NCBI GenBank assembly: GCA_964589825.1
Contig: CAZPUS010000001.1
Location: forward strand, 100,486 to 164,485
Direction: 5' to 3'
Origin: an uncultured Fibrobacterota bacterium
GTDB lineage: Bacteria > Fibrobacterota > Chitinivibrionia > Chitinivibrionales > WJKA01
Length of the DNA: 64,000 bases
The notes beneath the pieces are model-generated. The model was given only the letters and a program-made list of their open reading frames with translations. It made no database searches and had not been told where the DNA came from. Below are positions 1 through 64,000 of the stretch, one piece after another. Positions within the stretch are counted from its first letter, which is position 1. Every line of letters starts with the position of its first letter. A program made the position numbers and the translations under genes.

Positions 1-1
1 C

Positions 2-1249
2 GCATGCTACAAAATAAAAAATTATTTCATCAATCCTGATCATCTCTATTTTGTACTTGGTGAATTGCCCTATATAACGGCAAAATGTGAAGAGGAACGC
101 CGCGATCCCTTTCTTCAATATACCAGCAAGACTGAGGCTATCAAAGAATTGTTTCATGAAACAAAATACGGTCGTTTTAATGAAACAAAATCAACGCAGC
201 AGCTTTCGAGTCAGTATATACAAACAGCTCTTACATTTGCCCGGAACCTCGCAATCACCGAGGGCAACCTTACCCCGTCGCTGTTCGATATGCTGCAGGC
301 GGCAAAAGGTGTTGCCGGAAACACCTATGCCTATAACCTGCTTAAAAACGCTAAATACTATCCCTTTCTGCCCTATGAAATAGATAAAAATTTTTTATCC
401 CTCGGCATTGACAAAGTGCAATTCAGTGAAGGACTGCCACCGCATCCCGCATATAACCTTCTCAATGACCGACAGCTGACGTGGAAAAAGATCAATATCT
501 ATCCGGAACCTGAAGATGAGGAGCCGGACGAAGAGGCCTGTTCCACCGATTCTATCGATATGGGTATGTGGTGCTCCCATATCCCTGAGGATCGTCGCAT
601 AGAACATTTCAACTCATATGCTCGTGAAAAAACCAAGGACATGGTCACCTCTCGTGCAACCCGTACAGTCCGGTTTACCAGTTCACTCGAAGAGGGCATA
701 GACCTGCGTGAAACCATACGTAACTGGCATACTGGTAAGATCTACGTGAAACAGCACCCGCCACGAAGTTGTAGTGTCGATACGGTTATCATCGTTTTTG
801 ATGCCACACACGATGAACGCTACCCGCACTGCGCGACGTGGTCTGCGGAGCACAAGCATGAATCGACACTCAGTTTTTTTGCCACCGATCCTTTTGAGCA
901 CGTAATAGGTCCAGGTATATCACGTGCTTATTACGGCGGTTTGTCGCTTGTTTATCCGCCACGGCCAATAGAAAACCCCTTCGAAATCACTGAAGATTTC
1001 ATTCGCGGCACGCTTACCCACAGGCTGGTCTATGGTGCATGTATGTTCAGCGAGCGCACACATCTGAGCTATATTGCATACAAAAAGCCGGATTATATTT
1101 TGCAGAAAATTGCACAGAACTTTGGCAAGAGGCTGGTATGGATACCGCTATCCCATTACGGCAAAAAGACATTGCAGCGGTTGCGCACCTTTCATGTACT
1201 TAACGGAAAAGTGGTTCGCAGCTGGGCCTCACGCTTTATCCCTGAATAA
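2..1249 (+). CDS. Conserved hypothetical protein, 5'-truncated by the window edge
   Basis: The frame of ORF 65..1249 stays open back to base 2 (ACYKIKNYF...). Protein-like composition; no confident family. Confidence 0.8.
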   Translation, partial: ACYKIKNYFINPDHLYFVLGELPYITAKCEEERRDPFLQYTSKTEAIKELFHETKYGRFNETKSTQQLSSQYIQTALTFARNLAITEGNLTPSLFDMLQAAKGVAGNTYAYNLLKNAKYYPFLPYEIDKNFLSLGIDKVQFSEGLPPHPAYNLLNDRQLTWKKINIYPEPEDEEPDEEACSTDSIDMGMWCSHIPEDRRIEHFNSYAREKTKDMVTSRATRTVRFTSSLEEGIDLRETIRNWHTGKIYVKQHPPRSCSVDTVIIVFDATHDERYPHCATWSAEHKHESTLSFFATDPFEHVIGPGISRAYYGGLSLVYPPRPIENPFEITEDFIRGTLTHRLVYGACMFSERTHLSYIAYKKPDYILQKIAQNFGKRLVWIPLSHYGKKTLQRLRTFHVLNGKVVRSWASRFIPE

Positions 1250-1264
1250 CCCTTTGATTTTCCC

Positions 1265-2140
1265 ATGCATTCTTTTGCGATGTGTCATATTCCAAACTTG
1301 TCCCGCACTCTTATTCTGAGTGTTGTATGCGCCGGGTTACTGCCGAATGCCGCAATCCCCGATACATCGTATACCGACAATCTCAGAAAACGCTTTACAG
1401 GGGAGTATAGATACTGCCACGTCGATTCCGTCGACTCGGCTATCTCTTTTGACAGCGTGCTTGCCTGGAAAAAGAAAATTAACAACTGGGCTCTCTCGGA
1501 AGAATATCCGGAGTATGTGCAGCGCTACCTCAACGCACATCCGCAACAAAGCGCTGATGAGGTTTTGTCGTGTGAGGTATACCGATGGGCACGCCGGAAA
1601 GAGCAACAACACTACCGTGACAGTGTGCAGCGTGCGCGATATCGCCGTGATTCTCTTCAGATCGCACAGGCCCGGACAAAGGTGACACCTTCAAGGTATG
1701 ACTTTGGCCGTATTCCCTTTGGTCTTACGCGTAAGGTGGTCCAGTTGATTTTTTCACACGAGCGCAATGATACACTACAGGTTAATTTTTCTGAGCTCAT
1801 AAAGGATACAGTGGTTGCCGGTGCCGAATGTACTATAAAGTTTTTTTTCAACCGCAAAGATTTTCTTTATAGTTACTCCTTTCAAAGCAATGCGTGGCCG
1901 GCAGATTCTCTTGACACACGTGTACGGGATATCGCACACAAGTGGACAAAGCTTTTTTCCAAGAGATTCAATGCATCTCCTGGAATACATCGGATCGGTT
2001 TTATCGATATAGGAACCGATTCGACCGCAGTATACCGCACATGGGGTGACAGCTGCCATCAGGCGGCTATCGGATTTATTCAGCGCTCCCATCGTTTTGC
2101 CGTGACTGCAACTGTAGAAGATACCTGCATGCATCGGTAA
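1265..2140 (+). CDS. Hypothetical exported protein
   Basis: 291-aa ORF with a hydrophobic N-terminal segment (TLILSVVCAGLLPNAA), 15 nt after the upstream stop. Confidence 0.7.
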   Translation: MHSFAMCHIPNLSRTLILSVVCAGLLPNAAIPDTSYTDNLRKRFTGEYRYCHVDSVDSAISFDSVLAWKKKINNWALSEEYPEYVQRYLNAHPQQSADEVLSCEVYRWARRKEQQHYRDSVQRARYRRDSLQIAQARTKVTPSRYDFGRIPFGLTRKVVQLIFSHERNDTLQVNFSELIKDTVVAGAECTIKFFFNRKDFLYSYSFQSNAWPADSLDTRVRDIAHKWTKLFSKRFNASPGIHRIGFIDIGTDSTAVYRTWGDSCHQAAIGFIQRSHRFAVTATVEDTCMHR

Positions 2141-2164
2141 AAGCCTCTAAACTCATTGGATGGG

Positions 2165-2184
2165 GTATTGCAATCTTGCAATAC
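2165..2184. promoter_or_regulatory. 20-bp palindrome, candidate operator
   Basis: GTATTGCAA-TC-TTGCAATAC (perfect 9-bp arms) in the intergenic region upstream of the NusG-II/Gx genes. Confidence 0.4.
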
Positions 2185-2300
2185 AGAGACAATCGTGTGG
2201 TTTTTAACCCGAATGTTGTGCTACGCGCAGACCACCAGTACCTTTACACCTCGCATATGTAGTACACGATTGTACAGCTACATTCCGGATAGGAAGTTTC

Positions 2301-2693
2301 GTGATACGCAGAACACACTATGCCACTTTCGCTATTGCCGACATTTTCTTTGTGCTGATAATGCTTGCAGGTACAGCTTTTTCGCTCTTTATATTGCTAA
2401 AGGAACCGGTTGCAAAAAAAAAAGTGGCGGTGTATAAAGGGATGGAAAAAATCGGATCCTACGAGCTGCCGGCGACCAAAGAAGTCACCGTGCAGGGCAG
2501 ATTGGGCGCCATGATCATCGAACTCGACCATGATCGCGTTCGCGTATGCAGATCCCTGTGTAAAAACAAAATATGTATACGCACCGGCTGGATAAGTGAG
2601 CCGGGACAACAGATCGTATGTGTCCCCAATCAGATCATCATCGTTATTAAAGCGATACATAATGGAAAGAGCCCCGATGCATACAGCCGATAA
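2301..2693 (+). CDS. NusG domain II (DUF1312)/EetA-like membrane-anchored protein
   Basis: N-terminal TM, then the V.V..S.C.NKICI.TGWI..PGQ.IVCVPN motif typical of NusG-II. AGGAAG RBS before the GTG. Confidence 0.85.
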   Translation: MIRRTHYATFAIADIFFVLIMLAGTAFSLFILLKEPVAKKKVAVYKGMEKIGSYELPATKEVTVQGRLGAMIIELDHDRVRVCRSLCKNKICIRTGWISEPGQQIVCVPNQIIIVIKAIHNGKSPDAYSR

Positions 2694-3825
2694 ACGCCTG
2701 CATCAGGAAGATATCGTGTATCGGACCTTGCTGATTCTCTGTGCAATCGCGATACACGCTATCGAGTTTTTTCTTCCAAGGATCCCGTTTTTCCCCTGGC
2801 TGAAGCCTGGTCTTTCAAATGTCATTACCGTGCTCTGGATTATCAAATTTGGTATGATCGATGCGTTGCTGCTTGTACTGCTGCGAGTCTGGATTGCCGG
2901 TTTCTATTTTGGTTTCTCCTTTATCACACTTACACTCAGCTGCAGCGGAGGGCTCGCAGCGACCCTTGCGATGGGCATTCTTTGGAAAATCGCAGGGGAG
3001 AAAAAACTGATCGGTACGATCGGCATTTCCATTATCGGCGCCTTTGTGCACAATGTAACACAGTTGAGCGTGGTACATCTGCTACTGGCTCACTCAGTCG
3101 TCCTCTTTTATCAGATTCCGGCGGTTTGTCTCGCCTCCCTTGGCTTTGGTACTATCGTCGGGTTACTCGTCCCCTATATTGATTCGGTGGTGAATTCAAT
3201 CTATCCAACACTTCCGGACACACTTACTATCCCCAGGTCGTCACGACAATTTAAACGTTTCGACATATTTTCTTCGACTTGTGTGCTCGGCACCTGCGTG
3301 GCATTGCTTTTTCTTAACAATCTGCTCGCCCTCGCTGTTTTTGCAACGATTCTGACCGTTCTCGTATTTTTTATCCTGCGAACACCATTAAAGACACTCA
3401 CCTACCCGGTTAGAAGATTCTGGATCATTTTTCTCGGTGTCGCCCTCATCTATCTTTTTTTCACACCCGGCACATCCTATACGCATTTTCCCATGCTTAC
3501 GCATGAGGGGGTCCTTTTTACATCACGACAATGGCTTCGCATCTGGTGCTGGCTGCAACTCTCGCTCACTCTTCATTTTTTCAACTTTCACCATATCACG
3601 TTTTCTGTTCTTTCCAGAATATTTCGCGCACATCACTCGACACTTTATGCCGGTATCCTTGCTCTGGAGTATTTCCCACACACACTTCAGACCATAAAAG
3701 ATACCATCCGGATATCACCTAAAAAATTATTTTTTCACCCGGCGACCTATATAACCGACACATTGAGATCGGGTTTTATTTCGGTTGCACAAATAATGAA
3801 ACAAAGCAAAGAAACAACAGTGTAA
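2677..3825 (+). CDS. Gx transporter (HepS component I/EetB-like) fused to an EcfT/FmnA-like membrane domain
   Basis: N-half has the AIAIHAIE..P...PWLKPGLSN Gx motif. C-half LFLNN...LFFTPG...THEG...LR resembles EcfT. ATG 2677 (or 2662) overlaps the upstream gene. Confidence 0.75.
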   Translation: MHTADKRLHQEDIVYRTLLILCAIAIHAIEFFLPRIPFFPWLKPGLSNVITVLWIIKFGMIDALLLVLLRVWIAGFYFGFSFITLTLSCSGGLAATLAMGILWKIAGEKKLIGTIGISIIGAFVHNVTQLSVVHLLLAHSVVLFYQIPAVCLASLGFGTIVGLLVPYIDSVVNSIYPTLPDTLTIPRSSRQFKRFDIFSSTCVLGTCVALLFLNNLLALAVFATILTVLVFFILRTPLKTLTYPVRRFWIIFLGVALIYLFFTPGTSYTHFPMLTHEGVLFTSRQWLRIWCWLQLSLTLHFFNFHHITFSVLSRIFRAHHSTLYAGILALEYFPHTLQTIKDTIRISPKKLFFHPATYITDTLRSGFISVAQIMKQSKETTV

Positions 3826-3894
3826 CCGGGCTGTTCCGCCGTTTGTTTACAAAGCATACCGCCAACATGACACCATTTACATCGGAGCATAATT

Positions 3895-4953
3895 GTGCAC
3901 ATACCCCCAAAAATGACAAGAATGGAGCTTACCGGTATACGTGAAATGAATTCCGCAACTGTTACGACCCCACGGATCGAAACCCCGACGGACGTACTCG
4001 TTCGTATTACGTCGATCGGTGTCTGCGGCAGTGATATTCACTACTATACACGAGGCAATATCGGCTCACAGGTTGTACAGTATCCATTTGTGGTAGGCCA
4101 TGAATGCGCGGGTATAGTAGCTGAAACCGGAGAAACGGTATCCACCGTAAAAAAGGGTGACAAAATCGCCGTTGATCCGGCAATGCCGTGCGGAAAATGT
4201 GACCAGTGCGCTGCGGGACGTGCTCACACGTGCCGAAATCTGAGATTCCTCGGTTGTCCGGGACAGGCACAGGGATGCATGTCAGAATATATCTGTATTC
4301 CCGAAACGAGCTGCTATCCCGTGCCCCCGGATATGGAGGACGACTGTGCCGTACTTGCGGAACCATTGTCGATCGGAATATATGCATCAACATTTGCCCC
4401 GTCGCTTCAGGGGCGGTCGGTCGCCATCCTCGGGTCAGGACCTATTGGGCTGAGCGTACTACTCGCCTGCCGTGACAACGGTGCCGGCAGTATCTATACC
4501 AGCGACAAGCTGCCGCCGCGAATGGGCAAAGCGTCCGAACTCGGTGCCACCGCCAGCATGAACGCGGATACCGACGATGTAGTACAATTTATACTGCAAA
4601 AAGAACAAGGCGGTGTCGATGTGGTTTTCGAATGTTGTGGTGATCAGGACGCACTGGACCAGGCGGTTTCCCTGCTCAAACCGGGTGGACAGCTTGTTAT
4701 CGTCGGGATACCGGAGCCGAAGAGAGTCAGTTTCGAAATTGATTTTCTACGTCGCAGGGAATTACAAATCTGCAACGTCCGACGACAAAACAAATGCATG
4801 CGCAAAGCGATCGATGCCATACATTCCTCGCGCATGAACGCGGGTGCGATGAAAACCCATCGATTTCCCTTTAAAAAAAGTAAAGACGCGTTCGATTGTG
4901 TCGCCGGGTATCTCGATGATGTCATAAAAGCAATAATTTATTTTCCTGTATAA
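3895..4953 (+). CDS. Zn-dependent medium-chain (sorbitol/L-iditol-type) dehydrogenase
   Basis: CGSD and GHE catalytic-Zn motifs, structural-Zn CGKCDQC..GRAHTC, Rossmann GSGPIG. Confidence 0.9.
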   Translation: MHIPPKMTRMELTGIREMNSATVTTPRIETPTDVLVRITSIGVCGSDIHYYTRGNIGSQVVQYPFVVGHECAGIVAETGETVSTVKKGDKIAVDPAMPCGKCDQCAAGRAHTCRNLRFLGCPGQAQGCMSEYICIPETSCYPVPPDMEDDCAVLAEPLSIGIYASTFAPSLQGRSVAILGSGPIGLSVLLACRDNGAGSIYTSDKLPPRMGKASELGATASMNADTDDVVQFILQKEQGGVDVVFECCGDQDALDQAVSLLKPGGQLVIVGIPEPKRVSFEIDFLRRRELQICNVRRQNKCMRKAIDAIHSSRMNAGAMKTHRFPFKKSKDAFDCVAGYLDDVIKAIIYFPV

Positions 4954-5029
4954 CAACAGGCTGGCGTTTTGGCAGCTTCGGTTCAATCTTTATCTATTAT
5001 TTATTATTACTACTACAAGGAATACATAA

Positions 5030-6325
5030 TTGATTTTTCGACCAGAATTATCATGGGAATCACTTTCACAGGAAGAAATACGAACCCGCACACTTCGGGC
5101 GCTTCGTAATCACATCAGACACATAAAAACTTCCTCGTCTTTCTATTCCGAACTCCTTTTCGATGTTTCGGATGATACGGTCGCTTCGTTCGACGATTTT
5201 AGAAAACTCCCCTTTACCGATGCAACAACCCTTGCAAAACGTAACGACGCATTTTGCATGACCGGTTCGGAATCGATTACCGAAACCGTATTGGTCGACG
5301 ACGCACTCCACACTTCCACGGCCATCCCGGTGTTTCTTACGGCCAGTGATGCCGACAGGATGGCATTCGATATGGCCTTGGGACTTCATGCATGCGGTGT
5401 AACATCCGAAGACACCGTCCTACTTCTTATTGACATGAACAATCCTGACATGGTCGGATTGAGCATCTATCACGGGTTAAAGCTGCTTGGTGCAAATGTG
5501 ATACGCGCCGGAGATTTCAAGGGGAAAAGTATGAAAACAACCCTGCAGCGGCTCCGACCGTCCGTATTCGCAGGCACTCTGACGTCACTAAACGCAATTA
5601 CTACTCATTTGGGAGAATGCGGTCTTTCTGCGGATGCGTTCTCGGATAAAAAGGTTTTTTGTGCAGGTTACGATCTCAGAAACGATACAATGCAGCTCAA
5701 TCAGGACGGTGCTGCCCTCGCCCACTTTTTCGGTGCACATATATTCTCGTTTCAGCCTCTTGGCGCGTGTCAATCTGCCTTATGGGAATGCCCCGCACAA
5801 AAAGGACTGCATATTCACCCCGAATTGACTTTTGCAGAAATAATCGATGAACAAGAGCGTGTTATCACAGACGACAAACCGGGTGAGCTCGTAATCACCA
5901 CCCTCGGAATCGAGGGTATGCCCCTTCTTCGGTTTAAAACCGGAAAGCACGCGTTCGCACTCACCGATTCATGCAGTTGCGGCAGAAACTCCCGCCGCAT
6001 CGTACCTATTGATACGACACATGCACAATCTGTTTCTCGCGAATCGACACAGGAGTCGATTCCCGGACAAATAACCCGGATCCTCGATTCTTTCGAACAG
6101 ATTCAGGACTACGTGGTAATTATCGAACACGATGCAGCAAACAACCGTAAAATAACTATCCACGCACTCATTTCTCCCCAGATGGTGCATACGGTATACA
6201 GAATGCTACACGCAAAACTCAATATCGATATACCCATTCTTGTCTCAAATCCCGCGACCATTCAATCCATTCGGGGCACACAGGATAATAACGGGAAAAT
6301 AATCGATACTCGCAGTCATCGCTGA
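5030..6325 (+). CDS. Phenylacetate-CoA ligase (PaaK)-like protein with degenerate motifs
   Basis: LPFTD, ECP..KGLHI...AEIID and GELVITTL..EGMPLLRF are PaaK-like; the SSGTTG P-loop is absent. Confidence 0.75.
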   Translation: MIFRPELSWESLSQEEIRTRTLRALRNHIRHIKTSSSFYSELLFDVSDDTVASFDDFRKLPFTDATTLAKRNDAFCMTGSESITETVLVDDALHTSTAIPVFLTASDADRMAFDMALGLHACGVTSEDTVLLLIDMNNPDMVGLSIYHGLKLLGANVIRAGDFKGKSMKTTLQRLRPSVFAGTLTSLNAITTHLGECGLSADAFSDKKVFCAGYDLRNDTMQLNQDGAALAHFFGAHIFSFQPLGACQSALWECPAQKGLHIHPELTFAEIIDEQERVITDDKPGELVITTLGIEGMPLLRFKTGKHAFALTDSCSCGRNSRRIVPIDTTHAQSVSRESTQESIPGQITRILDSFEQIQDYVVIIEHDAANNRKITIHALISPQMVHTVYRMLHAKLNIDIPILVSNPATIQSIRGTQDNNGKIIDTRSHR

Positions 6326-6394: not shown

Positions 6395-8278
6395 ATGCCG
6401 GTGTATACGTGTATGAACAAACCATTTCGAAGGTGCATACATCCTGTCGTGCTGGCAACACTGCTGATTGCAGCAGGAATAGATGCCAAAACACGCTGGA
6501 GCGCATTCCAGGGCATTCCTCATGCGGATTTCATTAAGGGAGGTGCCTATTCACTGCAGTCGGCAAATTTTGCCACAGCCGACTCTTTGGGAAACAGCAT
6601 CGAGACGAGGGTGGCGTATGAACTCCGTGCCACTGTAGGAGCCACTCGCTGGATCAATCTCGAAGCCGGATATTCCGACGGCCTTGTTTTCGGGTTTAAG
6701 GCTCGCCTTCTTGGTGAAACCAGACCCTATACCCCCTCCCTGTGTGTCGGCGTCAGAAATATAGGTAATCACCGGGAAGCAAATTTTTTCAATTCCCCGC
6801 GTCTTGACTCTTCTGCAGAGTTTTTTGCGGCACTCGGTAAGGACGTAGAGCCGATACGCACCCGCTTTCATGGTGGCATTCTGTCAATTCCATCAATAGA
6901 AGGCGAAAAAATCAATCCGTTTTTCGGTATCGAAAGCTATGCAGGTGTGGGCATATACTATTCCATAGAAGTTTACAGACGTGACAGTTCATTTATTCCT
7001 TCTCTGTATGCGATATATCGTATGCTTGACGATCGGGTGGAAATTTCGGCTGGCATCATCGGTATCAAAAGGCTGCTTATCAACTCCAAAAACGAGTTTT
7101 CATTCGCTTTTTCCTCTCCTCCCGGTCCTTCCGAATACATACGACCGGGTATTTTTTTCGGACTGCGGTATCGGGGAGATATAGCGTTTGGACAAAAAGA
7201 GGCATTCAACAGCGTTGAAGATCTCTCTATTTCTCTTCAGCAACGTCTGGAGAATTTCAACGCTCATTTGGCACGTATCGAAGAAAAAATCGAACAAAAC
7301 AGCACCAGCATCAAGGGGATAAAAGAGGATATCATCCGGCTGGATAATGCGCTTTCTGATCACAAAACCAAGCTCAGAACCATTTTGATGGACAAACTTC
7401 TGCACCTTAAAACACTCTACCATGCATCACCATATAAACCGCAACAGGTACAGCAAACCATACAGGAATTGACAAATTACAAGTTTAACGACAAGGCCAT
7501 GAAGATATTCCAGGAATTCGCCCTTGACAAAACACAGGACCGGGAAATCCGCATCCTTGCTATCGAAATACTAGGGGAAATCGGGAAAAACAGCGCCGCC
7601 GATATACTTCTCGACATCTGTGCCAATGAAGAGGATCCCGGAATACGTATCGCATGTATTATCTCAATTGGCAAAATGGAAGCCACAGAGGCGATTCCAC
7701 TGCTACGACGTCTGTCCAATGCTCCCGATGATAACATCGCCATAAGTGCCCAGGAAGTCCTCGGAACGCTGACTGACGGGGCCTCGTTTGCCGGCAGTCC
7801 TTCTCGCTACAACAAAGCATTGCGTACCATTGCAGAAGCCGATACTGCCCCGGAGACGAACGTAACGTCTTCAGACCAATCTGCTGCTGCTACCAATCCT
7901 GATACAATACAGACACGCGGCGGCACTGACAGTATCCCGAATGACATAAGAGCCGACAGCTCCGTCACTTCTGACCCGACCCCATCCCCAAAAACATCGA
8001 CAGCCGCCACCGATACCGTTATTCAAAACACCGATACCACGGTATCGGACTCATCCGAATCCGAGAACGCACCTGAGGCAGATCCTGCATTGTCCTCTTC
8101 CGATACGCTTACACGCAACTCACCCGATGCCGAACCCAAAGACAGCACCGTCGAAGATCAAGCACCAACCGACACCACTGACTTGCCTGGCACCGAACCA
8201 TCTCCCCTCTCATCCGATACCGCGACATCCGCAGATGCTCAAACAGAGACGGACACCACCGCGGCAGAAAACCAATAA
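6395..8278 (+). CDS. Exported protein: beta-barrel-like N-terminus, coiled coil, HEAT repeats, acidic S/T/D/P-rich tail
   Basis: Signal peptide; YjbH-like alternating strands (GFKARLLGE, PSLCVGVRN); HEAT-like repeats (IRILAIEILGEIG, IRIACIISIGKM); low-complexity C-terminus. Confidence 0.7.
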   Translation: MPVYTCMNKPFRRCIHPVVLATLLIAAGIDAKTRWSAFQGIPHADFIKGGAYSLQSANFATADSLGNSIETRVAYELRATVGATRWINLEAGYSDGLVFGFKARLLGETRPYTPSLCVGVRNIGNHREANFFNSPRLDSSAEFFAALGKDVEPIRTRFHGGILSIPSIEGEKINPFFGIESYAGVGIYYSIEVYRRDSSFIPSLYAIYRMLDDRVEISAGIIGIKRLLINSKNEFSFAFSSPPGPSEYIRPGIFFGLRYRGDIAFGQKEAFNSVEDLSISLQQRLENFNAHLARIEEKIEQNSTSIKGIKEDIIRLDNALSDHKTKLRTILMDKLLHLKTLYHASPYKPQQVQQTIQELTNYKFNDKAMKIFQEFALDKTQDREIRILAIEILGEIGKNSAADILLDICANEEDPGIRIACIISIGKMEATEAIPLLRRLSNAPDDNIAISAQEVLGTLTDGASFAGSPSRYNKALRTIAEADTAPETNVTSSDQSAAATNPDTIQTRGGTDSIPNDIRADSSVTSDPTPSPKTSTAATDTVIQNTDTTVSDSSESENAPEADPALSSSDTLTRNSPDAEPKDSTVEDQAPTDTTDLPGTEPSPLSSDTATSADAQTETDTTAAENQ

Positions 8279-8531: not shown

Positions 8532-9671
8532 TCAGACGATAAAGTCGATCTGTTGCACGGTACCCGCGCTCCCGCTGCTCTCTTTTACGAAGATGCCGGT
8601 ATCCCGTAAAACCCCTGCGTCATCGGTGGAGGAACTGCCAAGACCGATATGAGTGCCTCTGTGCTGCAGTGATATTGCACCGACATCCGCTTCGAGTAAA
8701 GGACGAAGCGTCCGGTTTCCTTCTTTGTCAAGCTCCATTATTTGAAGAGTATAAAACACATCGTCGTTTTCATCGATCCATCCGTTTTTATCGCTGTCCA
8801 GCATCCTCAGTTCCTCAAATCCATCACCTGTACGCGGTCCGAACAGTTCACTGCCGTTATCGATGGTCCCGTTGCCGTTTTTGTCATACGCCAGGAAGCC
8901 GCTGCCGGCTCCGGGGACCGAGATGCGTTCATTTGTCCCGTCACCATTGAGATCGAATTCCGTTTTTGTGTCGCTTAATGTCACATGCGGGGCATTAAAA
9001 TTGACAATCAGTGGATCGATCGCCGCATCCCCCGCTTTTACACTTACCGATACTTCCTCGTACGTTTCCCTGCTCATGTGCAAAGAGACGTCAAAGGAAA
9101 AGGCCCTTCCGTCTTCTGTAGAAAGGTTGCCGGCTGCGGAAAAATTGACCTTTTCGGCAGTATGGGTAATTCGTTTGAAATCATATGAAACACCCCACCC
9201 CTGTCGCTGAGGTTGACTCTGTTCTTCGGCCTGCTCCATTTTTCCCCGTGCGGTCTCTTTTGCCTGAGCTGCAGCCTTTTCTGGATCAGGGCAGCATTCA
9301 TCCTTTTCATCTCCATACAGCTCTACTTTTCGTCCTGTCCACTCTTCAACGAGCATTTTCAGGACAGAAAGCCTGGCATCCGAAATGAATTCTTTAAATA
9401 TTTCATCTTTTGAGCGCGTCTTTTCACCGCATTTCGCATTCTGCGGTTTATTGTCTGATCCGCGCTCATGTACGGGTGCCGATCGTCTCATCCGGTCGGA
9501 AAGCAATGCGATATCGGCCCGGGAAAATCTCGCTTCTGCATACCCCTGCGAAACACGCGCGTATTCTATTCGTTTTTTCCCGTTCCATGCATGTAACCGT
9601 TCATGGGTCTGTGTGTTGACTTTTGCCCGTGACTGCGCATCCATGCGCATTGCAGCACTCGCTATTTTCAT
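8532..9671 (-). CDS. Hypothetical protein with Ca-binding-like DxDxDG/VCBS-type motifs
   Basis: FDLNGDG, YDKNGNGTIDNGSELFG and LDSDKNGWIDEND motifs; no signal peptide. Confidence 0.8.
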   Translation of the reverse strand: MKIASAAMRMDAQSRAKVNTQTHERLHAWNGKKRIEYARVSQGYAEARFSRADIALLSDRMRRSAPVHERGSDNKPQNAKCGEKTRSKDEIFKEFISDARLSVLKMLVEEWTGRKVELYGDEKDECCPDPEKAAAQAKETARGKMEQAEEQSQPQRQGWGVSYDFKRITHTAEKVNFSAAGNLSTEDGRAFSFDVSLHMSRETYEEVSVSVKAGDAAIDPLIVNFNAPHVTLSDTKTEFDLNGDGTNERISVPGAGSGFLAYDKNGNGTIDNGSELFGPRTGDGFEELRMLDSDKNGWIDENDDVFYTLQIMELDKEGNRTLRPLLEADVGAISLQHRGTHIGLGSSSTDDAGVLRDTGIFVKESSGSAGTVQQIDFIV

Positions 9672-12631: not shown

Positions 12632-15073
12632 CTATTCAATACATTCGGCAATCTTTATGCTCCAACAGCGGGATCCGTCCATAAATCGTATAATATTTAC
12701 CTGGGCGCTATTACGAGCTATTCGCACTGACTCACCAGCCAAAAGTCTGCCCTGATTCAAAACACGTCCGGAAAAATTGTGCAGATTCCATTGCACAGAG
12801 ATTGCATTCGGATTATACAGAACTAACGAGCGTGCACCGGATTGCACTGAGATTCTCCCGCTTGAAAGCCTCTTTTGATAATCGATTTCCGGTTTCTCCC
12901 CCTTTATGCCTACTACATCTCCCAGTTGGATCCCACCTGCCAATTCTCCGTTGTGATATACCGGCAACCTGGGCAACAATCTCTCTTCGCCCATTATCAG
13001 ACTATCTCCGGAAAAATCATTCGCAATATCGAAATCTCCATTATTGATGTTTTCAAGACGAATAGTCGCTTTTCTCTTATTATTCCAGTTGATGTCGTCC
13101 CATTTTTTAAAGGGCTGAATGGTATCACCAGGGAAGGAAACTTCGATATATCCATCAGTCTCGTCTATCCAGTGAACAGGTGTAATTTCGGCTTCCACAT
13201 TTGACTCTACTATAGAAGCCCCGAAATCTGCGGTATCGGTTCCGGGCTCCACCGAAAGATAATACCGAAACGACAGGCCTCCAGTACGTCTGGCTGGCCA
13301 ACGCGTTCTGTTATGAAGATAGGTTCGTATCTTTACAAAATCATCTGTCTGCTGCAACAACTCTGCGGAAACAAAAAACTCCCTGTCAGTGGTATATAAA
13401 TCATTGGTAAGACGACGTGATTCCGGCTGAGGAAACTCGCTATCCGACAGTACATCTCCTGTTCCATAGTCGTTATCCAACAACCCACTTAGCATTACCA
13501 TGACCTGTGCATTCCAGTAGAGCGCAACTTCACTGGTCTCATAGTCCATTACCCAATTAGGGAAACTGTCATTCGGCGCGTGCGGCCCGGCCAGGACCCC
13601 GCCGTAAAGCACATGACGACATGAATCGGGACGATAAATCATCGGATAGAGTGGTCCATTCTCCTCATACAAAAAATGATCGTGGCTCGCCCATGCACCA
13701 TACGCTCCGCGATGATGTACGGTCTGCCAGTATCCATTATTCTCGGAATCGCTGTAGCCAATCATATAGCTTCGCTGATATGGATTATCCCCCAGAATGT
13801 AGTCAACTTGGCTCTTCACATAATCACAATACTGTTGCTTCTCGCTGGAATCATAAACAGTAAACAGCATACCGAGCGCCGTCGGATAACTCATTACTCC
13901 AATGGTAAACGCGTCAGCCCTGTTCTTACGATAGTGCAACCCCCCAGGGGATGTCACCACACCATTGGGATCGTCAGGATTTGTCTCACGCCATATACGT
14001 GATGTGCTTTCCACTGCATCATATAATCGCTGCCGTGCAGCATCCGAGAGCAATGAATCATTTGCGGCCTCATTCATTAAAAGATGAAGCATACCGTACT
14101 TGGATTTAACCGAGCGCCACCATTTATAATAATTCGCAGAATTGGGGGCCTCATACATTGTTGATTCTACAGCGGCTGCCATTGTAAACAGGGATCCGTC
14201 ACATTCTCCGGGTGTCATTTCCCTGCAGGCACGATTTGCCCAGGTAAGCCCGAGAATCACATTAGGATATGCAAAATAGTCCCGATAATCTATTTCCCGG
14301 TGATCACCATCAGGATCGATAACAAGCTCTTCTCCTTTGTCGTTAATCTCGATAAATTTATCGAGATAATTCCGCGCATACACAGCACATTTTTTGCCCG
14401 TGCGAAATAAAGTATCCGCATATTCCTCCATCTGGATCTCCCCGTGTAGGGAAAAAACCAACGCAGATGCGCAAAGCGCAGCAGCCATGTGTCCAGCGAC
14501 ATCCGACCCCGGTACAACAGTATCACACTTAACTGCTTCACGAACTGCGTAGCCCTCCATCGCTTCAGGAGATCCCCATCCACTGTGTACTCCAGGCTTA
14601 GGTCCCGGTCTACCGCCAACATCCACATAAATCTCATACTCTGAAAAATCATGAAGAGATTCGGGGTTTTTATCCACTATACACCTTAGAAAATAATCGC
14701 AAATATATTTCAGACCGTTTTTAAGCTCATCATCTTGAAAAGAGGATTTATATGCATCAGGAAATTCAATCATGCTCCACGCAAGCAACATTGCAGACCG
14801 TGCCATTGTATTATTCGATTTCCAGTGGTCTCCCGCATCGTACCACCCCCCCGAAAGATCAAGATCGACATCCGCGCCGTCATGGGTATGAGCTGGTCCT
14901 CTCCAGCTAACCCGGTTATTAGTAGAAAGTCTTCCGGATTCCTGACATTCATAAAAATAGATGCCCATCTGAAGTGCCTTTGCATAATTGAACTCTGCCC
15001 CTGCAACGAAAATCGTGCAAAGAGACGCTACCACAAACTTAATCACAGGCAATGTTTTTCGATTATTAATCAT
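12632..15073 (-). CDS. GH9 endoglucanase with CBM3c and a T9SS-like C-terminal domain
   Basis: Signal peptide; DLSGGWYDAGD, HHRGAYG and DYETSEVA GH9 motifs; YLHNRTRWPAR...LSFRYY CBM3c; basic C-terminal sorting-domain-like tail. Confidence 0.9.
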   Translation of the reverse strand: MINNRKTLPVIKFVVASLCTIFVAGAEFNYAKALQMGIYFYECQESGRLSTNNRVSWRGPAHTHDGADVDLDLSGGWYDAGDHWKSNNTMARSAMLLAWSMIEFPDAYKSSFQDDELKNGLKYICDYFLRCIVDKNPESLHDFSEYEIYVDVGGRPGPKPGVHSGWGSPEAMEGYAVREAVKCDTVVPGSDVAGHMAAALCASALVFSLHGEIQMEEYADTLFRTGKKCAVYARNYLDKFIEINDKGEELVIDPDGDHREIDYRDYFAYPNVILGLTWANRACREMTPGECDGSLFTMAAAVESTMYEAPNSANYYKWWRSVKSKYGMLHLLMNEAANDSLLSDAARQRLYDAVESTSRIWRETNPDDPNGVVTSPGGLHYRKNRADAFTIGVMSYPTALGMLFTVYDSSEKQQYCDYVKSQVDYILGDNPYQRSYMIGYSDSENNGYWQTVHHRGAYGAWASHDHFLYEENGPLYPMIYRPDSCRHVLYGGVLAGPHAPNDSFPNWVMDYETSEVALYWNAQVMVMLSGLLDNDYGTGDVLSDSEFPQPESRRLTNDLYTTDREFFVSAELLQQTDDFVKIRTYLHNRTRWPARRTGGLSFRYYLSVEPGTDTADFGASIVESNVEAEITPVHWIDETDGYIEVSFPGDTIQPFKKWDDINWNNKRKATIRLENINNGDFDIANDFSGDSLIMGEERLLPRLPVYHNGELAGGIQLGDVVGIKGEKPEIDYQKRLSSGRISVQSGARSLVLYNPNAISVQWNLHNFSGRVLNQGRLLAGESVRIARNSAQVNIIRFMDGSRCWSIKIAECIE

Positions 15074-29186: not shown

Positions 29187-29224
29187 GAAACTGTTCAACA
29201 ACAATCTACACAGGGAGGTTGACA

Positions 29225-30067
29225 ATGAGAATCAATCACAATGTATCTTCAATGATCACACAGTCGGCATTGTACACGGTAAACCGCGACATGCAGCAGT
29301 CTCTCGAGCGTCTCTCTACCGGACTCCGCATCAATCGAGCAAGTGACGACGCTGCAGGGCTGGGTGTATCCGAAAACCTGAGGACACAGATAAGAGGTGT
29401 GCGTCAGGCACAACGTAACGCACAGGACGGAATCTCCGCCCTCAATATCGCAGAAGGTGCGGCAAACGAGGCATCCGCAATTCTGCAGCGTATGCGCGAG
29501 CTGGCAATCCAGTCCGCCAACGATACCCTTACCACAACCGAACGGCAGTATATCGATTCCGAGTTCCAGGACCTGGAAACCGAAGTCGATCGTATCTCGC
29601 AGGTAACCAACTATAACGGTCAGGAGCTGATTTCGAGCAATACAAGCCGATTCGGGACCTCCGGGAACAACACGCTATGGATCGATGCAAACGATACCGA
29701 GGGTGTCGACAGCATGACGGTCACCATCACGAGTCTCGATTCATCCGATCTTTCCCTCAACGACCTGAACATCTCGACACAGTCGGCAGCCACAGCGGCA
29801 ATATCGACACTTGACGACGCAATCGACTCTGTCAACTCGATGCGTGCTAATGTCGGTGCATATGTAAACCGTCTCGAACATGCGGTCAATAACCTGCAGG
29901 TATCCGAAACCAACCAGGTCTCTGCAGAATCACAGATCCGCGACACCGATTTTGCCGCCGAATCGAGCAGATTCTCGAGAAATCAGATCCTGCAGCAATC
30001 CGCAACTTCCATGCTGTCACAGGCGAATATGGTCCCCTCGGGTGTGCTCACCCTGCTGCAAGGCTGA
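29225..30067 (+). CDS. fliC: Flagellin (short, D0/D1 only)
   Basis: MRINHN, LERLSTGLRINRASDDAAGL, LQRMRELA, SQIRDTD and ILQQSATSMLSQAN. ATG 29225 follows the RBS. Confidence 0.97.
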   Translation: MRINHNVSSMITQSALYTVNRDMQQSLERLSTGLRINRASDDAAGLGVSENLRTQIRGVRQAQRNAQDGISALNIAEGAANEASAILQRMRELAIQSANDTLTTTERQYIDSEFQDLETEVDRISQVTNYNGQELISSNTSRFGTSGNNTLWIDANDTEGVDSMTVTITSLDSSDLSLNDLNISTQSAATAAISTLDDAIDSVNSMRANVGAYVNRLEHAVNNLQVSETNQVSAESQIRDTDFAAESSRFSRNQILQQSATSMLSQANMVPSGVLTLLQG

Positions 30068-50552: not shown

Positions 50553-51854
50553 TCAGAAGCTGTATGTAACGCCAAATCTTGTAAAAAAATGGTGCTGCGG
50601 TCCGCTCACAAAATTTGTAAGAGTAAAGCAATTATCTTCGGCAACAATACAGTCAATTTTTAGCCTGTTTTCCACATTTGCGCCTATGCCAATACCAAGG
50701 AAATCATTTTTTGTTCCGTCAGCTTCCACATTTTCGGTCCATGTACCATCCTCTCCCTGTTTTACATATTTAAAGGTTTTGGACACCCCTGCCCGGAATA
50801 AAAACCAATTCCAAATAATATTACGCTCCAGTCCAAAGCTAAGTCTGGTGCCCATGGTTTTTCTTATATCGTTTCCGATTATACCACCTTCCTCGTCATC
50901 ATATAATATTTCAACTCCTGCCCAGCCGAAGCCTCTGTCGATATTCAGATTTGCACCCATTCCAATGTTTATACCGAGCTTTGTGTAATCCGCTAGATCA
51001 AAATAGGTAACTCCAAGTCTCGGTACGAATTTACCGTTAAGAACAACCAGATCGGAAAAAAGCCGTACACTTAGATCCGCGATAAAATCTGAACTGTCTG
51101 AAAAGCTGGCAAGTGTTTTATCCTCTAGCGTGGTGCCGGTTCCGCTGGTAACGGTATCCGTATACATTGCGTCTACTGCAGTAATCCCCAGTGACGCTTC
51201 AAGCGAGGTGGATGTTGCCAAAGGGGTATTGACACCTACATTTCCGCGTATATATCTCAGCCGTGCACCACTTGGGCTACCAATACCGGCGTTGTTATTT
51301 ACAATATACGCACCGCCACCAATCATTGTACCGCTTGGAAACGCATAGCTTCCTAAAAGATCTATCTTTCCAACAGGTTCGGGCATATAAATGCTGTCGC
51401 TACTGCCGGCTATCTTTTCGAATTCTTTTTCACCTTTAATGAAATAATCGAGATATTTGTCATACCTGTTAAGTGCAACACCTACGGAAAACATTGGATA
51501 TTGCATCATCTTTTCATTTTTTTTGTCTTCTTTAGAGGGTTTTGCAAGAGAATATGAAAGGATGCCACCGCCGTATTGTCGAATCGGATCTCTATTTTTT
51601 CTTTTCAAAGCAGCCAAATCATTGTTGTTATTTGATGACTGGTTATTTGACTCCTCCTCCTGTTCGGTAAAAATACCCCCTGAGCCGATAATCATATTCG
51701 GATATAAATTTGCATTTGCGGGATTACGAAATACGCTATAATCGTCTCTGAAAAAATTATCGTGTTTTCCCAAACCAATGATTCTCGATTCTGTCGCGTA
51801 ACTCATGGTAGCGCACGATATCATTACTGCTGCGACTGCTATCTTTTTCATCAT
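50553..51854 (-). CDS. Outer-membrane beta-barrel protein
   Basis: Signal peptide, alternating strands, C-terminal FGVTYSF (BAM-type Phe). Confidence 0.85.
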   Translation of the reverse strand: MMKKIAVAAVMISCATMSYATESRIIGLGKHDNFFRDDYSVFRNPANANLYPNMIIGSGGIFTEQEEESNNQSSNNNNDLAALKRKNRDPIRQYGGGILSYSLAKPSKEDKKNEKMMQYPMFSVGVALNRYDKYLDYFIKGEKEFEKIAGSSDSIYMPEPVGKIDLLGSYAFPSGTMIGGGAYIVNNNAGIGSPSGARLRYIRGNVGVNTPLATSTSLEASLGITAVDAMYTDTVTSGTGTTLEDKTLASFSDSSDFIADLSVRLFSDLVVLNGKFVPRLGVTYFDLADYTKLGINIGMGANLNIDRGFGWAGVEILYDDEEGGIIGNDIRKTMGTRLSFGLERNIIWNWFLFRAGVSKTFKYVKQGEDGTWTENVEADGTKNDFLGIGIGANVENRLKIDCIVAEDNCFTLTNFVSGPQHHFFTRFGVTYSF

Positions 51855-51921
51855 AGCATCCCCCTCTTTAAATAAGGATAACTAAAAATTGAACAAATCG
51901 TATTTACAGCAAAAAAGATAA

Positions 51922-63629: not shown

Positions 63630-64000
63630 GGCACGTACTTTCCTCGCTATTTTTTTTGATTGCGTTATTTCTCGCACTTAAAAAATGTTAGAAATTTGTA
63701 AGGATTCTGTGTTACTAATGTCCTAATATACTAAAAAACAAGAAAAAAAACTGCATTCTCGATTATTTTACGTGTGAAAGACCACATCACTTTCTAATTC
63801 TTCTTCCTTGATAGATAAAATATTTTTCGTTGCACACAAATGCAAATTTTGTTTTGAGTTACACATGCCGTCAAAACACTTGTAACCGCAGTTTCTCAGC
63901 ACACCGTTTTTTCTGCCGTGGGTTCCGGTCCCATGTTTACTCTCCCTTTTGAATCTGCTGCCTGCACACGCTTTCTCCTGCAAAAGACCATGTCCCCATA

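What the first reader, a model, noticed from the sequence alone, without database searches (positions are those of the whole stretch)
2301..3825. Gx/EetB S-component fused to an EcfT/FmnA-like domain beside a NusG-II/EetA-like gene
Gx proteins are normally ~170 aa; this one is ~380 aa with a second, EcfT-like membrane domain. Established: in the Listeria extracellular electron transfer locus, EetB (Gx family) and FmnA (EcfT-like) act in ECF-type flavin export and EetA is NusG-II-like. The fusion would be a Rosetta-stone version in a diderm. Seen: the EcfT half lacks both ARG coupling motifs and no ecfA lies nearby. Inference: an ATPase-independent or facilitator-type flavin or cofactor translocator.
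Basis: partly seen in the sequence, partly recalled or inferred. Interest (0 to 1): 0.65.

Follow-up and report, generated by a model that had tools for sequence, protein, structure and literature searches.

The report
Single-chain ECF-like flavin exporter candidate
A membrane protein of a Fibrobacterota-type bacterium joins an EetB-like cofactor-binding domain to a shortened EcfT-like scaffold that has lost the motifs used to dock transport ATPases, which makes it a testable candidate for moving flavin into the periplasm without the usual ATP motor.

Summary
Window 2301-2693 encodes a NusG_II/EetA-type membrane protein. Overlapping it by 17 nt, 2677-3825 encodes a 382-aa protein. Its N-half is a clear Gx/EetB domain (PF07456, E 1e-29; RibU-like fold). 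Its C-half is invisible to Pfam but is a true, shortened EcfT homologue (hhalign 98.3%, E 2e-14; the nine best Foldseek PDB hits are all EcfT/CbiQ chains).

The fusion is not an artefact. More than 100 non-redundant relatives exist, in 59 species genomes that are almost all Fibrobacterota. Contigs from three sequencing runs reproduce it.

Both EcfT Ala-Arg-Gly motifs are absent. The Arg of A-L-R-F-I-P is Glu in 107 of 116 members, and about 50 C-terminal residues are missing. The 64-kb window holds no EcfA and no ApbE.

NusG_II lies directly upstream in 61 of 66 loci. ApbE abuts the fusion gene in 5 of 66 loci, in three lineages and two arrangements.

Best reading: a single-chain S-T module of the EetB/FmnA FAD-export kind, probably uncoupled from EcfA/A'. 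EetB-EcfT fusions were already published in 2023, so the Rosetta-stone point is not new. The motif-less, truncated Fibrobacterota form is a new variant. Substrate, direction and ATPase independence remain inferences.

The parts
2301..2693 (+). EetA-like gene: one N-terminal TM helix followed by a NusG_II domain (130 aa)
   Evidence: PF07009, E 5.5e-23. A homologue lies directly upstream on the same strand in 61 of 66 loci. Three invariant Cys (C87, C92, C107) plus P109-N110 across 52 relatives. Rivera-Lugo Data Set S1 labels EetA as NusG_II PF07009.
2677..3825 (+). Gx-EcfT fusion CDS (382 aa from ATG 2677; 387 aa if from ATG 2662). It overlaps the NusG_II stop codon by 17 nt.
   Evidence: ORF list. 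P0001 is 382 aa. Sequence and start codons. The modal overlap among relatives is also 17 nt. AF2 full-length model: pLDDT 90.8, pTM 0.87.
2731..3171 (+). Gx / EetB-type ECF-S-like domain (residues 24-170 in the 387-aa numbering)
   Evidence: PF07456, E 1.1e-29, 103.8 bits. The best Foldseek PDB hits are RibU S-components 3p5n and 5kbw/5kc0 (prob 1.00, TM on target 0.52-0.70).
3211..3255 (+). Variable Arg/Lys-rich linker between the two domains (residues 184-198). Inferred to be cytoplasmic.
   Evidence: Non-helical in the AF2 model, with lower pLDDT of about 80. Variable in length and sequence in alignment A1. The cytoplasmic location is an inference from the positive charge and from the known N-in/C-in topology of S-components and N-in topology of EcfT.
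3256..3816 (+). Truncated EcfT/CbiQ-like domain (residues 199-385): four TM helices plus three cytoplasmic helices. It lacks the last TM helix and both Ala-Arg-Gly motifs.
   Evidence: hhalign against EcfT: 98.3%, E 2.3e-14, residues 199-345 aligned to EcfT 24-174. hmmsearch cross-hits to canonical CbiQ proteins. The nine best Foldseek hits are all EcfT/CbiQ chains, TMq 0.45-0.57. Median of 49 residues after F-P, against about 100 in EcfT.
3661..3678 (+). A-L-E-Y-F-P motif, the counterpart of the EcfT A-L-R-F-I/V-P motif with Arg replaced by Glu
   Evidence: Aligned by hhalign to 'AIRFIP' of EcfT. Glu at this position in 107 of 116 non-redundant family members.
3499..3510 (+). T-H-E-G loop motif, shared with the Y-E-G of canonical EcfT (loop before the fourth TM helix of the T domain)
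   Evidence: T280 and G283 are nearly invariant in the family. Aligned to 'SYEG' of EcfT. Y-E-G is invariant in the EcfT alignment A3.
2..1249 (+). Context: the C-terminal 415 aa of a highly conserved ~604-aa cytoplasmic protein of unknown function. The window starts inside this gene.
   Evidence: 53% identity, E 9e-158, to the 604-aa protein of locus L002. Present upstream on the same strand in 37 of 50 loci with enough flank. No Pfam or PDB match.
1265..2140 (+). Context: a ~290-300-aa protein with a signal-peptide-like N-terminus and two invariant Cys. Function unknown.
   Evidence: Cluster 2, present in 39 of 59 loci on the same strand. Alignment A5. No Pfam or NCBIfam hit.

Best explanation
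The locus encodes a two-gene, translationally coupled membrane module.
- The first gene is an EetA-like NusG_II protein.
- The second is a single polypeptide in which an EetB-type (Gx, ECF-S-like) cofactor-binding domain is fused through a cytoplasmic linker to a shortened EcfT-type scaffold domain.

**Shown.**
- The identity of both domains.
- Conservation of the fusion across Fibrobacterota.
- The missing ATPase-docking Ala-Arg-Gly motifs and the missing C-terminal part of the T domain.
- The absence of an ECF ATPase gene in the window and in the ±10 kb examined around relatives.
- ApbE (FAD:protein FMN transferase) directly next to the fusion gene in several relatives.

**Inferred.**
- The Gx domain binds FAD or a close flavin in the cytoplasm.
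- It topples or rotates against the covalently attached T-domain platform, as S-components do on EcfT.
- It releases the flavin on the periplasmic side. There ApbE would use it to flavinylate envelope redox proteins such as RnfG/RnfD, which are present in cultured Chitinispirillia.
- Because the ATPase-docking elements are gone, the cycle most likely runs without EcfA/A'. The driving forces would be the outward flavin gradient, consumption by ApbE, and possibly the membrane potential acting on an anionic substrate.
For: **Domain identity.**
- PF07456 E 1e-29 and PF07009 E 5e-23.
- RibU-like fold for the N-half.
- EcfT homology of the C-half: hhalign 98.3%, cross-hits to canonical CbiQ proteins, and nine of nine top Foldseek hits.

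**Confident single-chain model.**
- pLDDT 90.8, pTM 0.87.
- The C-terminal helices score 85-91 in the full-length model but only 72-83 when the C-half is folded alone. This is consistent with packing against the Gx domain.

**Conservation.**
- About 75 full-length homologues.
- 59 species genomes.
- NusG_II directly upstream in 61 of 66 loci.

**Loss of coupling elements.**
- The same truncation and motif loss is seen in a second fusion clade that is detectable by Pfam: P0076 and P0280-P0284.
- No ECF ATPase in the window.
- The recurrent neighbouring ABC ATPase in relatives is DrrA/ABC-2-like, convergent, and has its own permease.

**Flavin link.**
- EetB binds FAD and is required for FAD export with FmnA (PMC9973259).
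- eetB colocalises with apbE in 2,169 of 4,214 genomes.
- In this family, ApbE (PF02424, E 1e-67) abuts the fusion gene in L008, L013, L059, L052 and L061. These show two arrangements, and their fusion proteins are ≤47% identical between lineages.
- Chitinispirillum alkaliphilum carries a family member (P0054) and has rnfCDGEAB.
Against: - No ApbE, FMN_bind, Rnf or Nqr gene lies in the 64-kb window.
- ApbE is adjacent in only 5 of 66 loci.
- Substrate and direction are extrapolated from one characterised Listeria homologue.
- EcfA/A' encoded elsewhere in the genome cannot be excluded, because whole genomes could not be searched.
- A Lys/Arg-rich stretch persists after the CH2-like helix (K+R 81% at position +7; some members carry S-R-G or A-R-S at +10 to +12). 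A degenerate docking site is therefore conceivable.
- The window protein's C-half does not reach Pfam's CbiQ threshold.
- Model coordinates could not be inspected, so the S-T interface is inferred only from pTM and pLDDT.
- The role of EetA is unknown. The Listeria ΔeetA strain had no EET phenotype.
Confidence: 0.5

Rival explanations
1. It is the fused S-T part of a conventional ATP-driven ECF exporter. EcfA/A' encoded elsewhere in the genome would dock on the T domain through a diverged interface, as EetB-FmnA-EcfA/A' does in Listeria.
For: In Listeria, FAD export by EetB/FmnA needs EcfA/A'. Group II ECF modules are often encoded away from their S-components (established knowledge). A basic stretch follows the CH2-like helix, and some members carry S-R-G or A-R-S there.
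Against: No Arg is conserved at either coupling position. The second coupling-helix end and the terminal TM helix are missing in 116 of 116 members and in a second fusion clade. There is no ECF-type ATPase in the window or among the recurrent neighbours in 66 loci.
Confidence: 0.2
2. It is a transporter built the same way but for another substrate or direction. Examples would be uptake of a vitamin, or handling of a prenylated or quinone compound, rather than FAD export.
For: ECF-S-like folds bind very different small molecules, and PF07456 has only one characterised member. An IspH(LytB)-UbiA prenyltransferase fusion recurs 1-3 kb downstream in relatives (8 of 41 loci). The Listeria EET locus also pairs EetB with the quinone genes DmkA/DmkB; this point rests on my own knowledge of Light et al. 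2018 and was not checked here.
Against: The best structural matches are riboflavin S-components. ApbE adjacency occurs in three lineages. The wide eetB-apbE colocalisation in the literature also points to flavin.
Confidence: 0.15
3. It is not primarily a transporter. It would be a membrane scaffold or assembly factor working with the conserved upstream genes (DUF2225, MoxR-type AAA+ ATPase, ~604-aa protein, ~300-aa secreted protein), with the AAA+ ATPase as the energy source or maturation chaperone.
For: Co-directional synteny MoxR - 604 aa - 299 aa - NusG_II - fusion is seen in 31 of 46, 37 of 50 and 39 of 59 loci with enough flank, across fusion proteins only ~36-45% identical to the window's. 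MoxR and the 604-aa gene overlap by 4 nt in L002.
Against: A non-conserved 160-224-nt gap separates the 299-aa gene from NusG_II. The NusG_II-fusion pair also occurs without these genes (L004, L005, L067, L003). No precedent links MoxR ATPases to ECF-type modules.
Confidence: 0.1
4. The long ORF is an artefact: read-through, frameshift or chimeric assembly of separate Gx and EcfT genes.
For: None found. One relative (P0075) is frameshifted in its C-half, and L059 carries frameshifts, but these are exceptions.
Against: More than 100 non-redundant relatives share the same architecture and length. There are 59 species genomes. Contigs from three runs span the junction without indels. The full-length AF2 model is confident.
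Confidence: 0.01

Closest known systems
Listeria monocytogenes EetB-FmnA-EcfA/A' FAD exporter with EetA (Rivera-Lugo et al., mBio 2023, PMC9973259)
   Same: The same Pfam families for the S-like part (PF07456) and for the neighbour (NusG_II PF07009). The T part is homologous to ECF-T. Association with ApbE in some relatives.
   Different: Here S and T are one polypeptide. The T domain is about 50 residues shorter, lacks both Ala-Arg-Gly motifs, and is too diverged for Pfam CbiQ. There is no ECF ATPase nearby. The host is a diderm of the Fibrobacterota. No EET genes (PplA, Ndh2, DmkA/B) were found in the window.
EetB-ECF-T fusion proteins already listed in the literature (WP_021725833.1, MBE6480012.1, MBQ3267887.1) and Pfam-detectable fusions such as P0076 and P0280-P0284
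   Same: The same domain order, Gx then EcfT. The P0076 clade is also preceded by NusG_II and is also truncated with degenerate ARG motifs.
   Different: Those are recognised by PF02361, and JGI names them '.../EcfT'. The Fibrobacterota family is not. P0076 is only ~24% identical to the window protein overall. P0076 sits in a multihaem-cytochrome/cytochrome-b/porin-like operon. I could not retrieve the three published accessions to compare their motifs.
Canonical group-II EcfT (e.g. Lactobacillus brevis 4HUQ_T/4RFS, L. delbrueckii 5D3M_D)
   Same: TM1-TM4 and the following cytoplasmic helices. The Y-E-G loop and the ...A-L-x-F-x-P... motif align.
   Different: Arg is replaced by Glu in A-L-R-F-I-P. 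The motifs 'AQRARG' and 'AMEARGY' are absent, and the C-terminal TM helix is absent. It is not a separate subunit shared among S-components.
Solitary S-components that transport without an ECF module (e.g. BioY; from my own knowledge of Hebbeln 2007 and Finkenwirth 2013, not checked here)
   Same: A precedent that an ECF-S fold can mediate ATPase-independent transport.
   Different: Those lack any T domain and act as importers. Here a T-derived scaffold is retained and fused.
Bfe/YeeO MATE-type FAD exporters of diderms (Shewanella, E. coli; from my own knowledge, not checked here)
   Same: The proposed physiological role: delivering FAD to the periplasm of a diderm.
   Different: An unrelated fold and mechanism (MATE antiporter).

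Membership tests
Gx transporter / EetB family (PF07456) | Match to the family HMM above Pfam's gathering score | tested here: met
   103.8 bits against 30, E 1.1e-29, residues 24-170 covering model positions 1-144 of 147.
Gx transporter / EetB family (PF07456) | ECF-S-like six-helix fold resembling RibU | tested here: met
   AF2 pLDDT 90.8. The best Foldseek hits are 3p5n and 5kbw/5kc0 RibU (prob 1.00, TM on target 0.52-0.70).
Gx transporter / EetB family (PF07456) | Adjacent eetA (NusG_II) gene, as in 3,328 of 4,214 genomes | tested here: met
   NusG_II at 2301-2693 overlaps the fusion start. The same arrangement holds in 61 of 66 loci.
Gx transporter / EetB family (PF07456) | FAD binding and requirement for extracytosolic flavinylation | not testable with these tools
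   This needs biochemistry or genetics. The only indirect support is ApbE adjacency in 5 of 66 loci.
EcfT / CbiQ (PF02361) | Match to the family HMM above the gathering score (25 bits) | tested here: not met
   No hit for the window protein at E ≤ 0.1. Five of 28 relatives hit weakly, best E 0.0062.
EcfT / CbiQ (PF02361) | Homology detectable by profile methods and a shared fold | tested here: met
   hhalign 98.3%, E 2.3e-14. The profile hits canonical CbiQ proteins at E 2e-5 to 2e-4 among 1.84 billion proteins. The nine best Foldseek hits are all EcfT/CbiQ chains.
EcfT / CbiQ (PF02361) | First Ala-Arg-Gly coupling motif at the end of coupling helix 2 (AQRARG in 4HUQ_T) | tested here: not met
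   Arg frequency is 6% at the canonical +16 position and never above 39% within 25 residues after F-P (n=116). The window has I-R-I-S at +10 to +13.
EcfT / CbiQ (PF02361) | Second Ala-Arg-Gly motif (AMEARGY) and the C-terminal TM helix | tested here: not met
   The protein ends a median of 49 residues after F-P, against about 100 in canonical EcfT P0147.
Complete ECF transporter (S + T + EcfA + EcfA') | ECF-type ABC ATPase genes in the operon or nearby | tested here: not met
   The only ABC ATPase in the window is MalK-type with its own BPD permeases and SBP. The recurrent ABC in relatives is DrrA/ABC-2-like and convergent.
Complete ECF transporter (S + T + EcfA + EcfA') | EcfA/A' present anywhere in the genome | not testable with these tools
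   Only the 64-kb window and ±10 kb loci were available.
Listeria-type flavin-based EET locus | FmnB/ApbE, PplA (FMN_bind lipoprotein), Ndh2 and DmkA/DmkB in the cluster | tested here: not met
   None of these Pfam families appeared among about 55 window ORFs scanned. A six-frame ApbE HMM search of the window found nothing.

The most novel reading that the evidence does not exclude
The Fibrobacterota family would be the first ECF-derived transporter that works with no ABC ATPase. It would be a covalently tethered S-T 'toppling' uniporter or potential-driven exporter that supplies FAD to periplasmic ApbE. This would identify a route for flavin delivery to the periplasm in a diderm phylum. A bolder variant is that its cycle is assisted by the conserved upstream MoxR-type AAA+/604-aa pair.
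Probability: 0.3. Interest if true: 0.75.

Novelty: new variant of a known kind. Interest (0 to 1): 0.5.

Why it matters
ECF transporters are defined by an S-component that topples on an EcfT scaffold driven by two ABC ATPases. The first ECF exporter (EetB/FmnA, for FAD) was described only in 2023.

This conserved family keeps the S domain and the S-binding scaffold in one chain but has shed the ATPase-docking elements. That raises a clean, testable question: can the toppling mechanism run without ATP when the substrate moves down its gradient?

It also gives a concrete candidate for how FAD reaches periplasmic ApbE, and hence Rnf-type complexes, in Fibrobacterota. These bacteria are important anaerobic degraders of cellulose and chitin.

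In practice, the T-like half is missed by Pfam and NCBIfam. These proteins are currently annotated only as 'Gx transporter' or, misleadingly, as 'heptaprenyl diphosphate synthase'.

Tried and rejected
- **PDB by sequence.** A single-sequence and a profile search of the PDB for the whole protein or the C-half found nothing relevant; only chance P450 hits at E ~0.5.
- **Foldseek with the full-length model.** It returned only S-component hits and noise for the C-half. Folding the C-half alone was needed.
- **The window's own contig.** Looking up P0001 on its own contig to see the upstream genes failed; it is not on record.
- **Riboswitch or conserved RNA upstream of NusG_II.** No Rfam hit in window 1-6000 at E ≤ 1. 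nhmmer found no conserved intergenic element across 66 loci. The promoter and terminator scan was not above shuffled expectation.
- **The neighbouring convergent ABC ATPase in relatives as a hidden EcfA.** Rejected. Its best NCBIfam matches are DrrA, lantibiotic-protection and NodI types, and it comes with its own ABC-2-like permease.
- **Flavinylation targets next to the ApbE-linked loci.** No FMN_bind or Rnf was found.
- **The 604-aa upstream protein.** No Pfam or PDB relative even with a profile.
- **Short-contig contexts.** The contexts of the distant fusions P0142 and P0132 were uninformative.
- **Two 433-aa ORFs at 50553-53223.** They looked like paralogues but are unrelated.
- **Literature.** No paper discusses this Fibrobacterota family or links EetA to a function.
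Full report
**1. What is at the coordinates**

Window 2301-2693(+) is a 130-aa ORF and window 2596-3825(+) is the longest form of a second ORF.

- The first ORF is a NusG_II protein (PF07009, E 5.5e-23). It has one N-terminal hydrophobic helix. In 52 relatives it carries three invariant cysteines and a C-x-P-N motif.
- The second ORF most likely starts at ATG 2677, giving 382 aa. That is the length of the database copy P0001. It also gives the same 17-nt overlap with the upstream stop codon that is the mode among relatives.
- The numbering used below counts from ATG 2662 (387 aa).
- Residues 24-170 match PF07456 (Hpre_diP_synt_I, the 'Gx transporter'/EetB family) at E 1.1e-29.
- NCBIfam names neither protein.

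**2. The fusion is real**

- A word-seeded search of 5.8 billion proteins returned about 75 homologues of 364-425 aa that cover 85-100% of the query. The named ones come from Chitinivibrionales, Chitinispirillaceae, Chitinispirillum alkaliphilum and 'Fibrobacter sp.' MAGs, with a few from Thermodesulfobacteriota-labelled MAGs.
- A scan of one genome per species found the family in 59 genomes. Almost all are Fibrobacterota. A handful are labelled Desulfobacteraceae, Deltaproteobacteria or Acidobacteriota.
- Contigs assembled independently from three sequencing runs cover the gene, including the domain junction, with no indels.
- The alignment shows conservation in both halves.
- The window itself encodes OmpA, ExbB/ExbD and BamD-like proteins and a GH9-CBM3 cellulase. 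These fit a diderm of the Fibrobacterota.

**3. What the C-half is**

Sequence-to-profile methods fail:
- The window protein has no Pfam hit, and only 5 of 28 relatives give weak CbiQ hits (best E 0.0062).
- A profile search of PDB sequences finds nothing.

Three independent stronger tests agree that it is an EcfT homologue:
- **Exhaustive profile search.** An hmmsearch of 1.84 billion representatives with the C-half profile found only 88 proteins at E ≤ 1e-3. Nearly all carry the domain at residues ~190-380 of ~380-aa proteins. The hits also include stand-alone proteins P0144, P0147 and P0152 (E 2e-5 to 2e-4). These are canonical CbiQ proteins (Pfam E 1e-36 to 1e-49). P0147 matches the L. brevis EcfT of 4HUQ at E 3.6e-47.
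- **Profile-profile comparison.** hhalign against an EcfT alignment gives 98.3% probability, E 2.3e-14, over 144 columns. Residues 199-345 align to EcfT residues 24-174.
- **Structure.** An AF2 model of the C-half alone (pLDDT 87.1) has EcfT or CbiQ chains as its nine best PDB matches: 5d3m_D, 7nnu_D, 9kym_C, 7nnt_D, 8bmr_C, 8bms_C, 6zg3_D, 5x3x_Q and 5x41_F. The first five have probability 1.00, with TM 0.45-0.57 over ~205 columns across the nine. Everything below them is noise.

The full-length model is confident (pLDDT 90.8, pTM 0.87). Its best PDB matches are the riboflavin S-components RibU.

**4. What the T domain has lost**

In canonical EcfT the motif A-L-R-F-V-P is followed 15-17 residues later by the first Ala-Arg-Gly motif ('AQRARG'). 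Later come 'AMEARGY' and a final TM helix. In 116 non-redundant family members:
- The Arg of A-L-R-F-I-P is Glu in 107.
- Arg occupies the canonical motif position in 6%. No position in the next 25 residues exceeds 39% Arg.
- The chain ends a median of 49 residues after F-P, against about 100 in EcfT.

A basic stretch remains, and some members show S-R-G or A-R-S five residues 'early'. A degenerate site therefore cannot be fully excluded.

A second clade of Gx-T fusions is Pfam-detectable (P0076, P0280-P0284; JGI annotates them 'uncharacterized membrane protein/EcfT'). It shows the same truncation, with 'LKN' in place of ARG.

**5. Genomic context**

I clustered the ORFs of 66 loci and ran HMM checks.

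- **NusG_II.** Directly upstream on the same strand in 61 of 66 loci.
- **Conserved co-directional array further upstream.** DUF2225 (23 of 44 loci with enough flank), a MoxR-type AAA+ ATPase (31 of 46), a ~604-aa protein (37 of 50) and a ~300-aa protein with a signal-peptide-like N-terminus (39 of 59).
  - The window begins inside the 604-aa gene.
  - That protein is very conserved (68% mean column identity) but has no Pfam or PDB relative.
  - A non-conserved 160-224-nt gap separates this array from NusG_II. Co-transcription is therefore open.
- **Downstream and convergent.** Relatives often carry a DrrA-like ABC ATPase with an ABC-2-like 221-aa permease (16 of 49 and 13 of 54). This ATPase is not an EcfA. 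An IspH-UbiA fusion follows in 8 of 41 loci.
- **ApbE, the most informative neighbour (PF02424, E 1e-67).**
  - In L008, L013 and L059 it is the last gene of that convergent ABC operon and ends 0.15-0.65 kb from the fusion's stop codon.
  - In L052 and L061 it lies divergently just upstream. In L061 it sits between NusG_II and the fusion.
  - The fusion proteins of these lineages are ≤47% identical to each other. The adjacency has therefore been kept or arisen repeatedly.
- **The window itself.** The 64-kb window has no ApbE, FMN_bind, Rnf, Nqr or ECF ATPase. Its single ABC ATPase is a MalK-type sugar-importer subunit about 42 kb away.
- **A distant fusion in a redox operon.** P0076 sits in an operon with two multihaem cytochromes, a cytochrome b, NusG_II and a porin-like gene.

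**6. What is known**

Rivera-Lugo et al. 2023 (PMC9973259) report the following:
- EetB (PF07456) is an FAD-binding ECF-S-like protein.
- With the ECF-T paralogue FmnA and EcfA/A' it exports FAD for ApbE/FmnB-dependent flavinylation.
- eetB colocalises with eetA in 3,328 of 4,214 genomes and with apbE in 2,169.
- Their Data Set S1 labels EetA as NusG_II PF07009. It includes an unfused EetB-EetA-ApbE-ECF-A-CbiQ cluster in a Bacteroidota genome.
- They explicitly list proteins with EetB plus ECF-T domains and EetB plus ECF-A domains as Rosetta-stone evidence.
- ΔeetA had no EET phenotype.

Chitinispirillum alkaliphilum encodes family member P0054. Both it and Chitinivibrio alkaliphilus have rnfCDGEAB, whereas Fibrobacter succinogenes does not (PMC4814513). 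Rnf needs ApbE-attached FMN on its periplasmic side; that requirement is established knowledge and was not tested here. No paper in the searchable library discusses this Fibrobacterota family.

**7. Mechanism**

Shown:
- An EetB-type S-like domain and an EcfT-derived scaffold are one chain.
- The gene is translationally coupled to an EetA-like gene.
- The ATPase-docking elements of the scaffold are gone.
- No ECF ATPase is local.
- ApbE is a recurrent immediate neighbour in relatives.

Inferred:
- The Gx domain binds FAD on the cytoplasmic side and re-orients against the tethered T platform.
- It then releases FAD to the periplasm for ApbE.
- Export of an anionic cofactor that is consumed outside needs no ATP in principle. 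Loss of the ATPase interface is therefore plausible rather than disabling.

I put about 0.5 on this composite reading. Domain identity alone is above 0.95. The flavin substrate is about 0.6. ATPase independence is about 0.5.

Rivals are:
- a conventional ATP-driven complex with distant EcfA/A' (0.2);
- another substrate or direction (0.15);
- a scaffold role tied to the upstream MoxR/604-aa array (0.1);
- an artefact (refuted).

**8. Verdict**

- The architecture itself is already in the literature, so this is not a new kind of system.
- The conserved, Pfam-invisible, motif-less and truncated T domain in a diderm phylum is a new variant. It carries a clear experimental question.
- Interest is 0.5.

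Noticed in passing
window 2-1249 (+); L002:4655-6469; L001:4921-6744: A ~604-aa cytoplasmic protein family that is very highly conserved (68% mean column identity; motifs such as C-S-H-x-P-E-D, D-G-I-D-x-R-E-T-x-R-N-W-H-T-G and D-E-R-Y-P-H). It has more than 1,400 database hits, all named 'hypothetical', and no Pfam or PDB relative. It always follows a MoxR-type AAA+ ATPase gene, overlapping it by 4 nt in L002. The window starts inside this gene.
   Followed up: partly
L008:3350-5922, L013:11203-13799, L059:11410-14009 (all minus strand): An operon of a DrrA-like ABC ATPase, a 221-aa ABC-2-like permease (E-R-x-x-G-x-L-E motif) and ApbE, convergent on the fusion gene. In many other loci the same ABC-permease pair is present without ApbE. 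An ABC-2 exporter co-transcribed with ApbE may itself have a role in flavin or cofactor handling.
   Followed up: partly
L001:11037-12806, L002:10929-12761, L005:10999-12771, L013:13846-15693: A single ~590-610-aa protein that fuses IspH/LytB (HMBPP reductase, TIGR00216 E 4e-85) to a UbiA-family prenyltransferase. It recurs 1-3 kb downstream of the fusion gene in relatives (8 of 41 loci).
   Followed up: no
L003:326-6714: In an unidentified metagenomic contig, a Pfam-detectable Gx-CbiQ fusion (P0076) and its NusG_II partner sit in one co-directional array with two multihaem c-type cytochromes, a Ni_hydr_CYTB-type cytochrome b and a porin-like gene. This looks like an extracellular or periplasmic electron-transfer cluster of a diderm.
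   Followed up: no
window 2301-2693: The EetA-like NusG_II proteins of this family have three invariant cysteines (C-x4-C ... C-x-P-N) in the soluble domain. This suggests a metal site or disulfide chemistry. The function of EetA is unknown.
   Followed up: partly
window 3895-4953 and 5030-6325 (+): Immediately downstream of the fusion gene lie a Zn-dependent medium-chain dehydrogenase (idonate/threonine-dehydrogenase-like) and a FlxY-like acyl-CoA ligase (flexirubin-type, NF053551, E 1e-65, below its cut-off). Neither is conserved next to the fusion in relatives.
   Followed up: no
window 6395-8278 (+) and 8532-9671 (-): A 627-aa HEAT-repeat protein with a long Ser/Thr/Pro/Asp-rich acidic tail. 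Next to it, a 379-aa protein without a Pfam hit that carries repeated D-x-N/D-G-D/N-G-x-I-D calcium-binding-like motifs.
   Followed up: no
window 12632-15073 (-), 29219-30067 (+), 62127-63677 (-): A GH9 cellulase with a CBM3 module, a flagellin gene, and an OmpA-anchored beta-helix/NosD-like protein. These are consistent with a motile, polysaccharide-degrading diderm of the Chitinivibrionia/Fibrobacterota group.
   Followed up: no
L059:9761-10973; P0075: The closest genome relative of the window's fusion gene (51% identity in the best segment) is broken into several frames in its long-read-derived MAG. P0075 is frameshifted in its C-half. These are probably sequencing or assembly errors rather than pseudogenes.
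   Followed up: no
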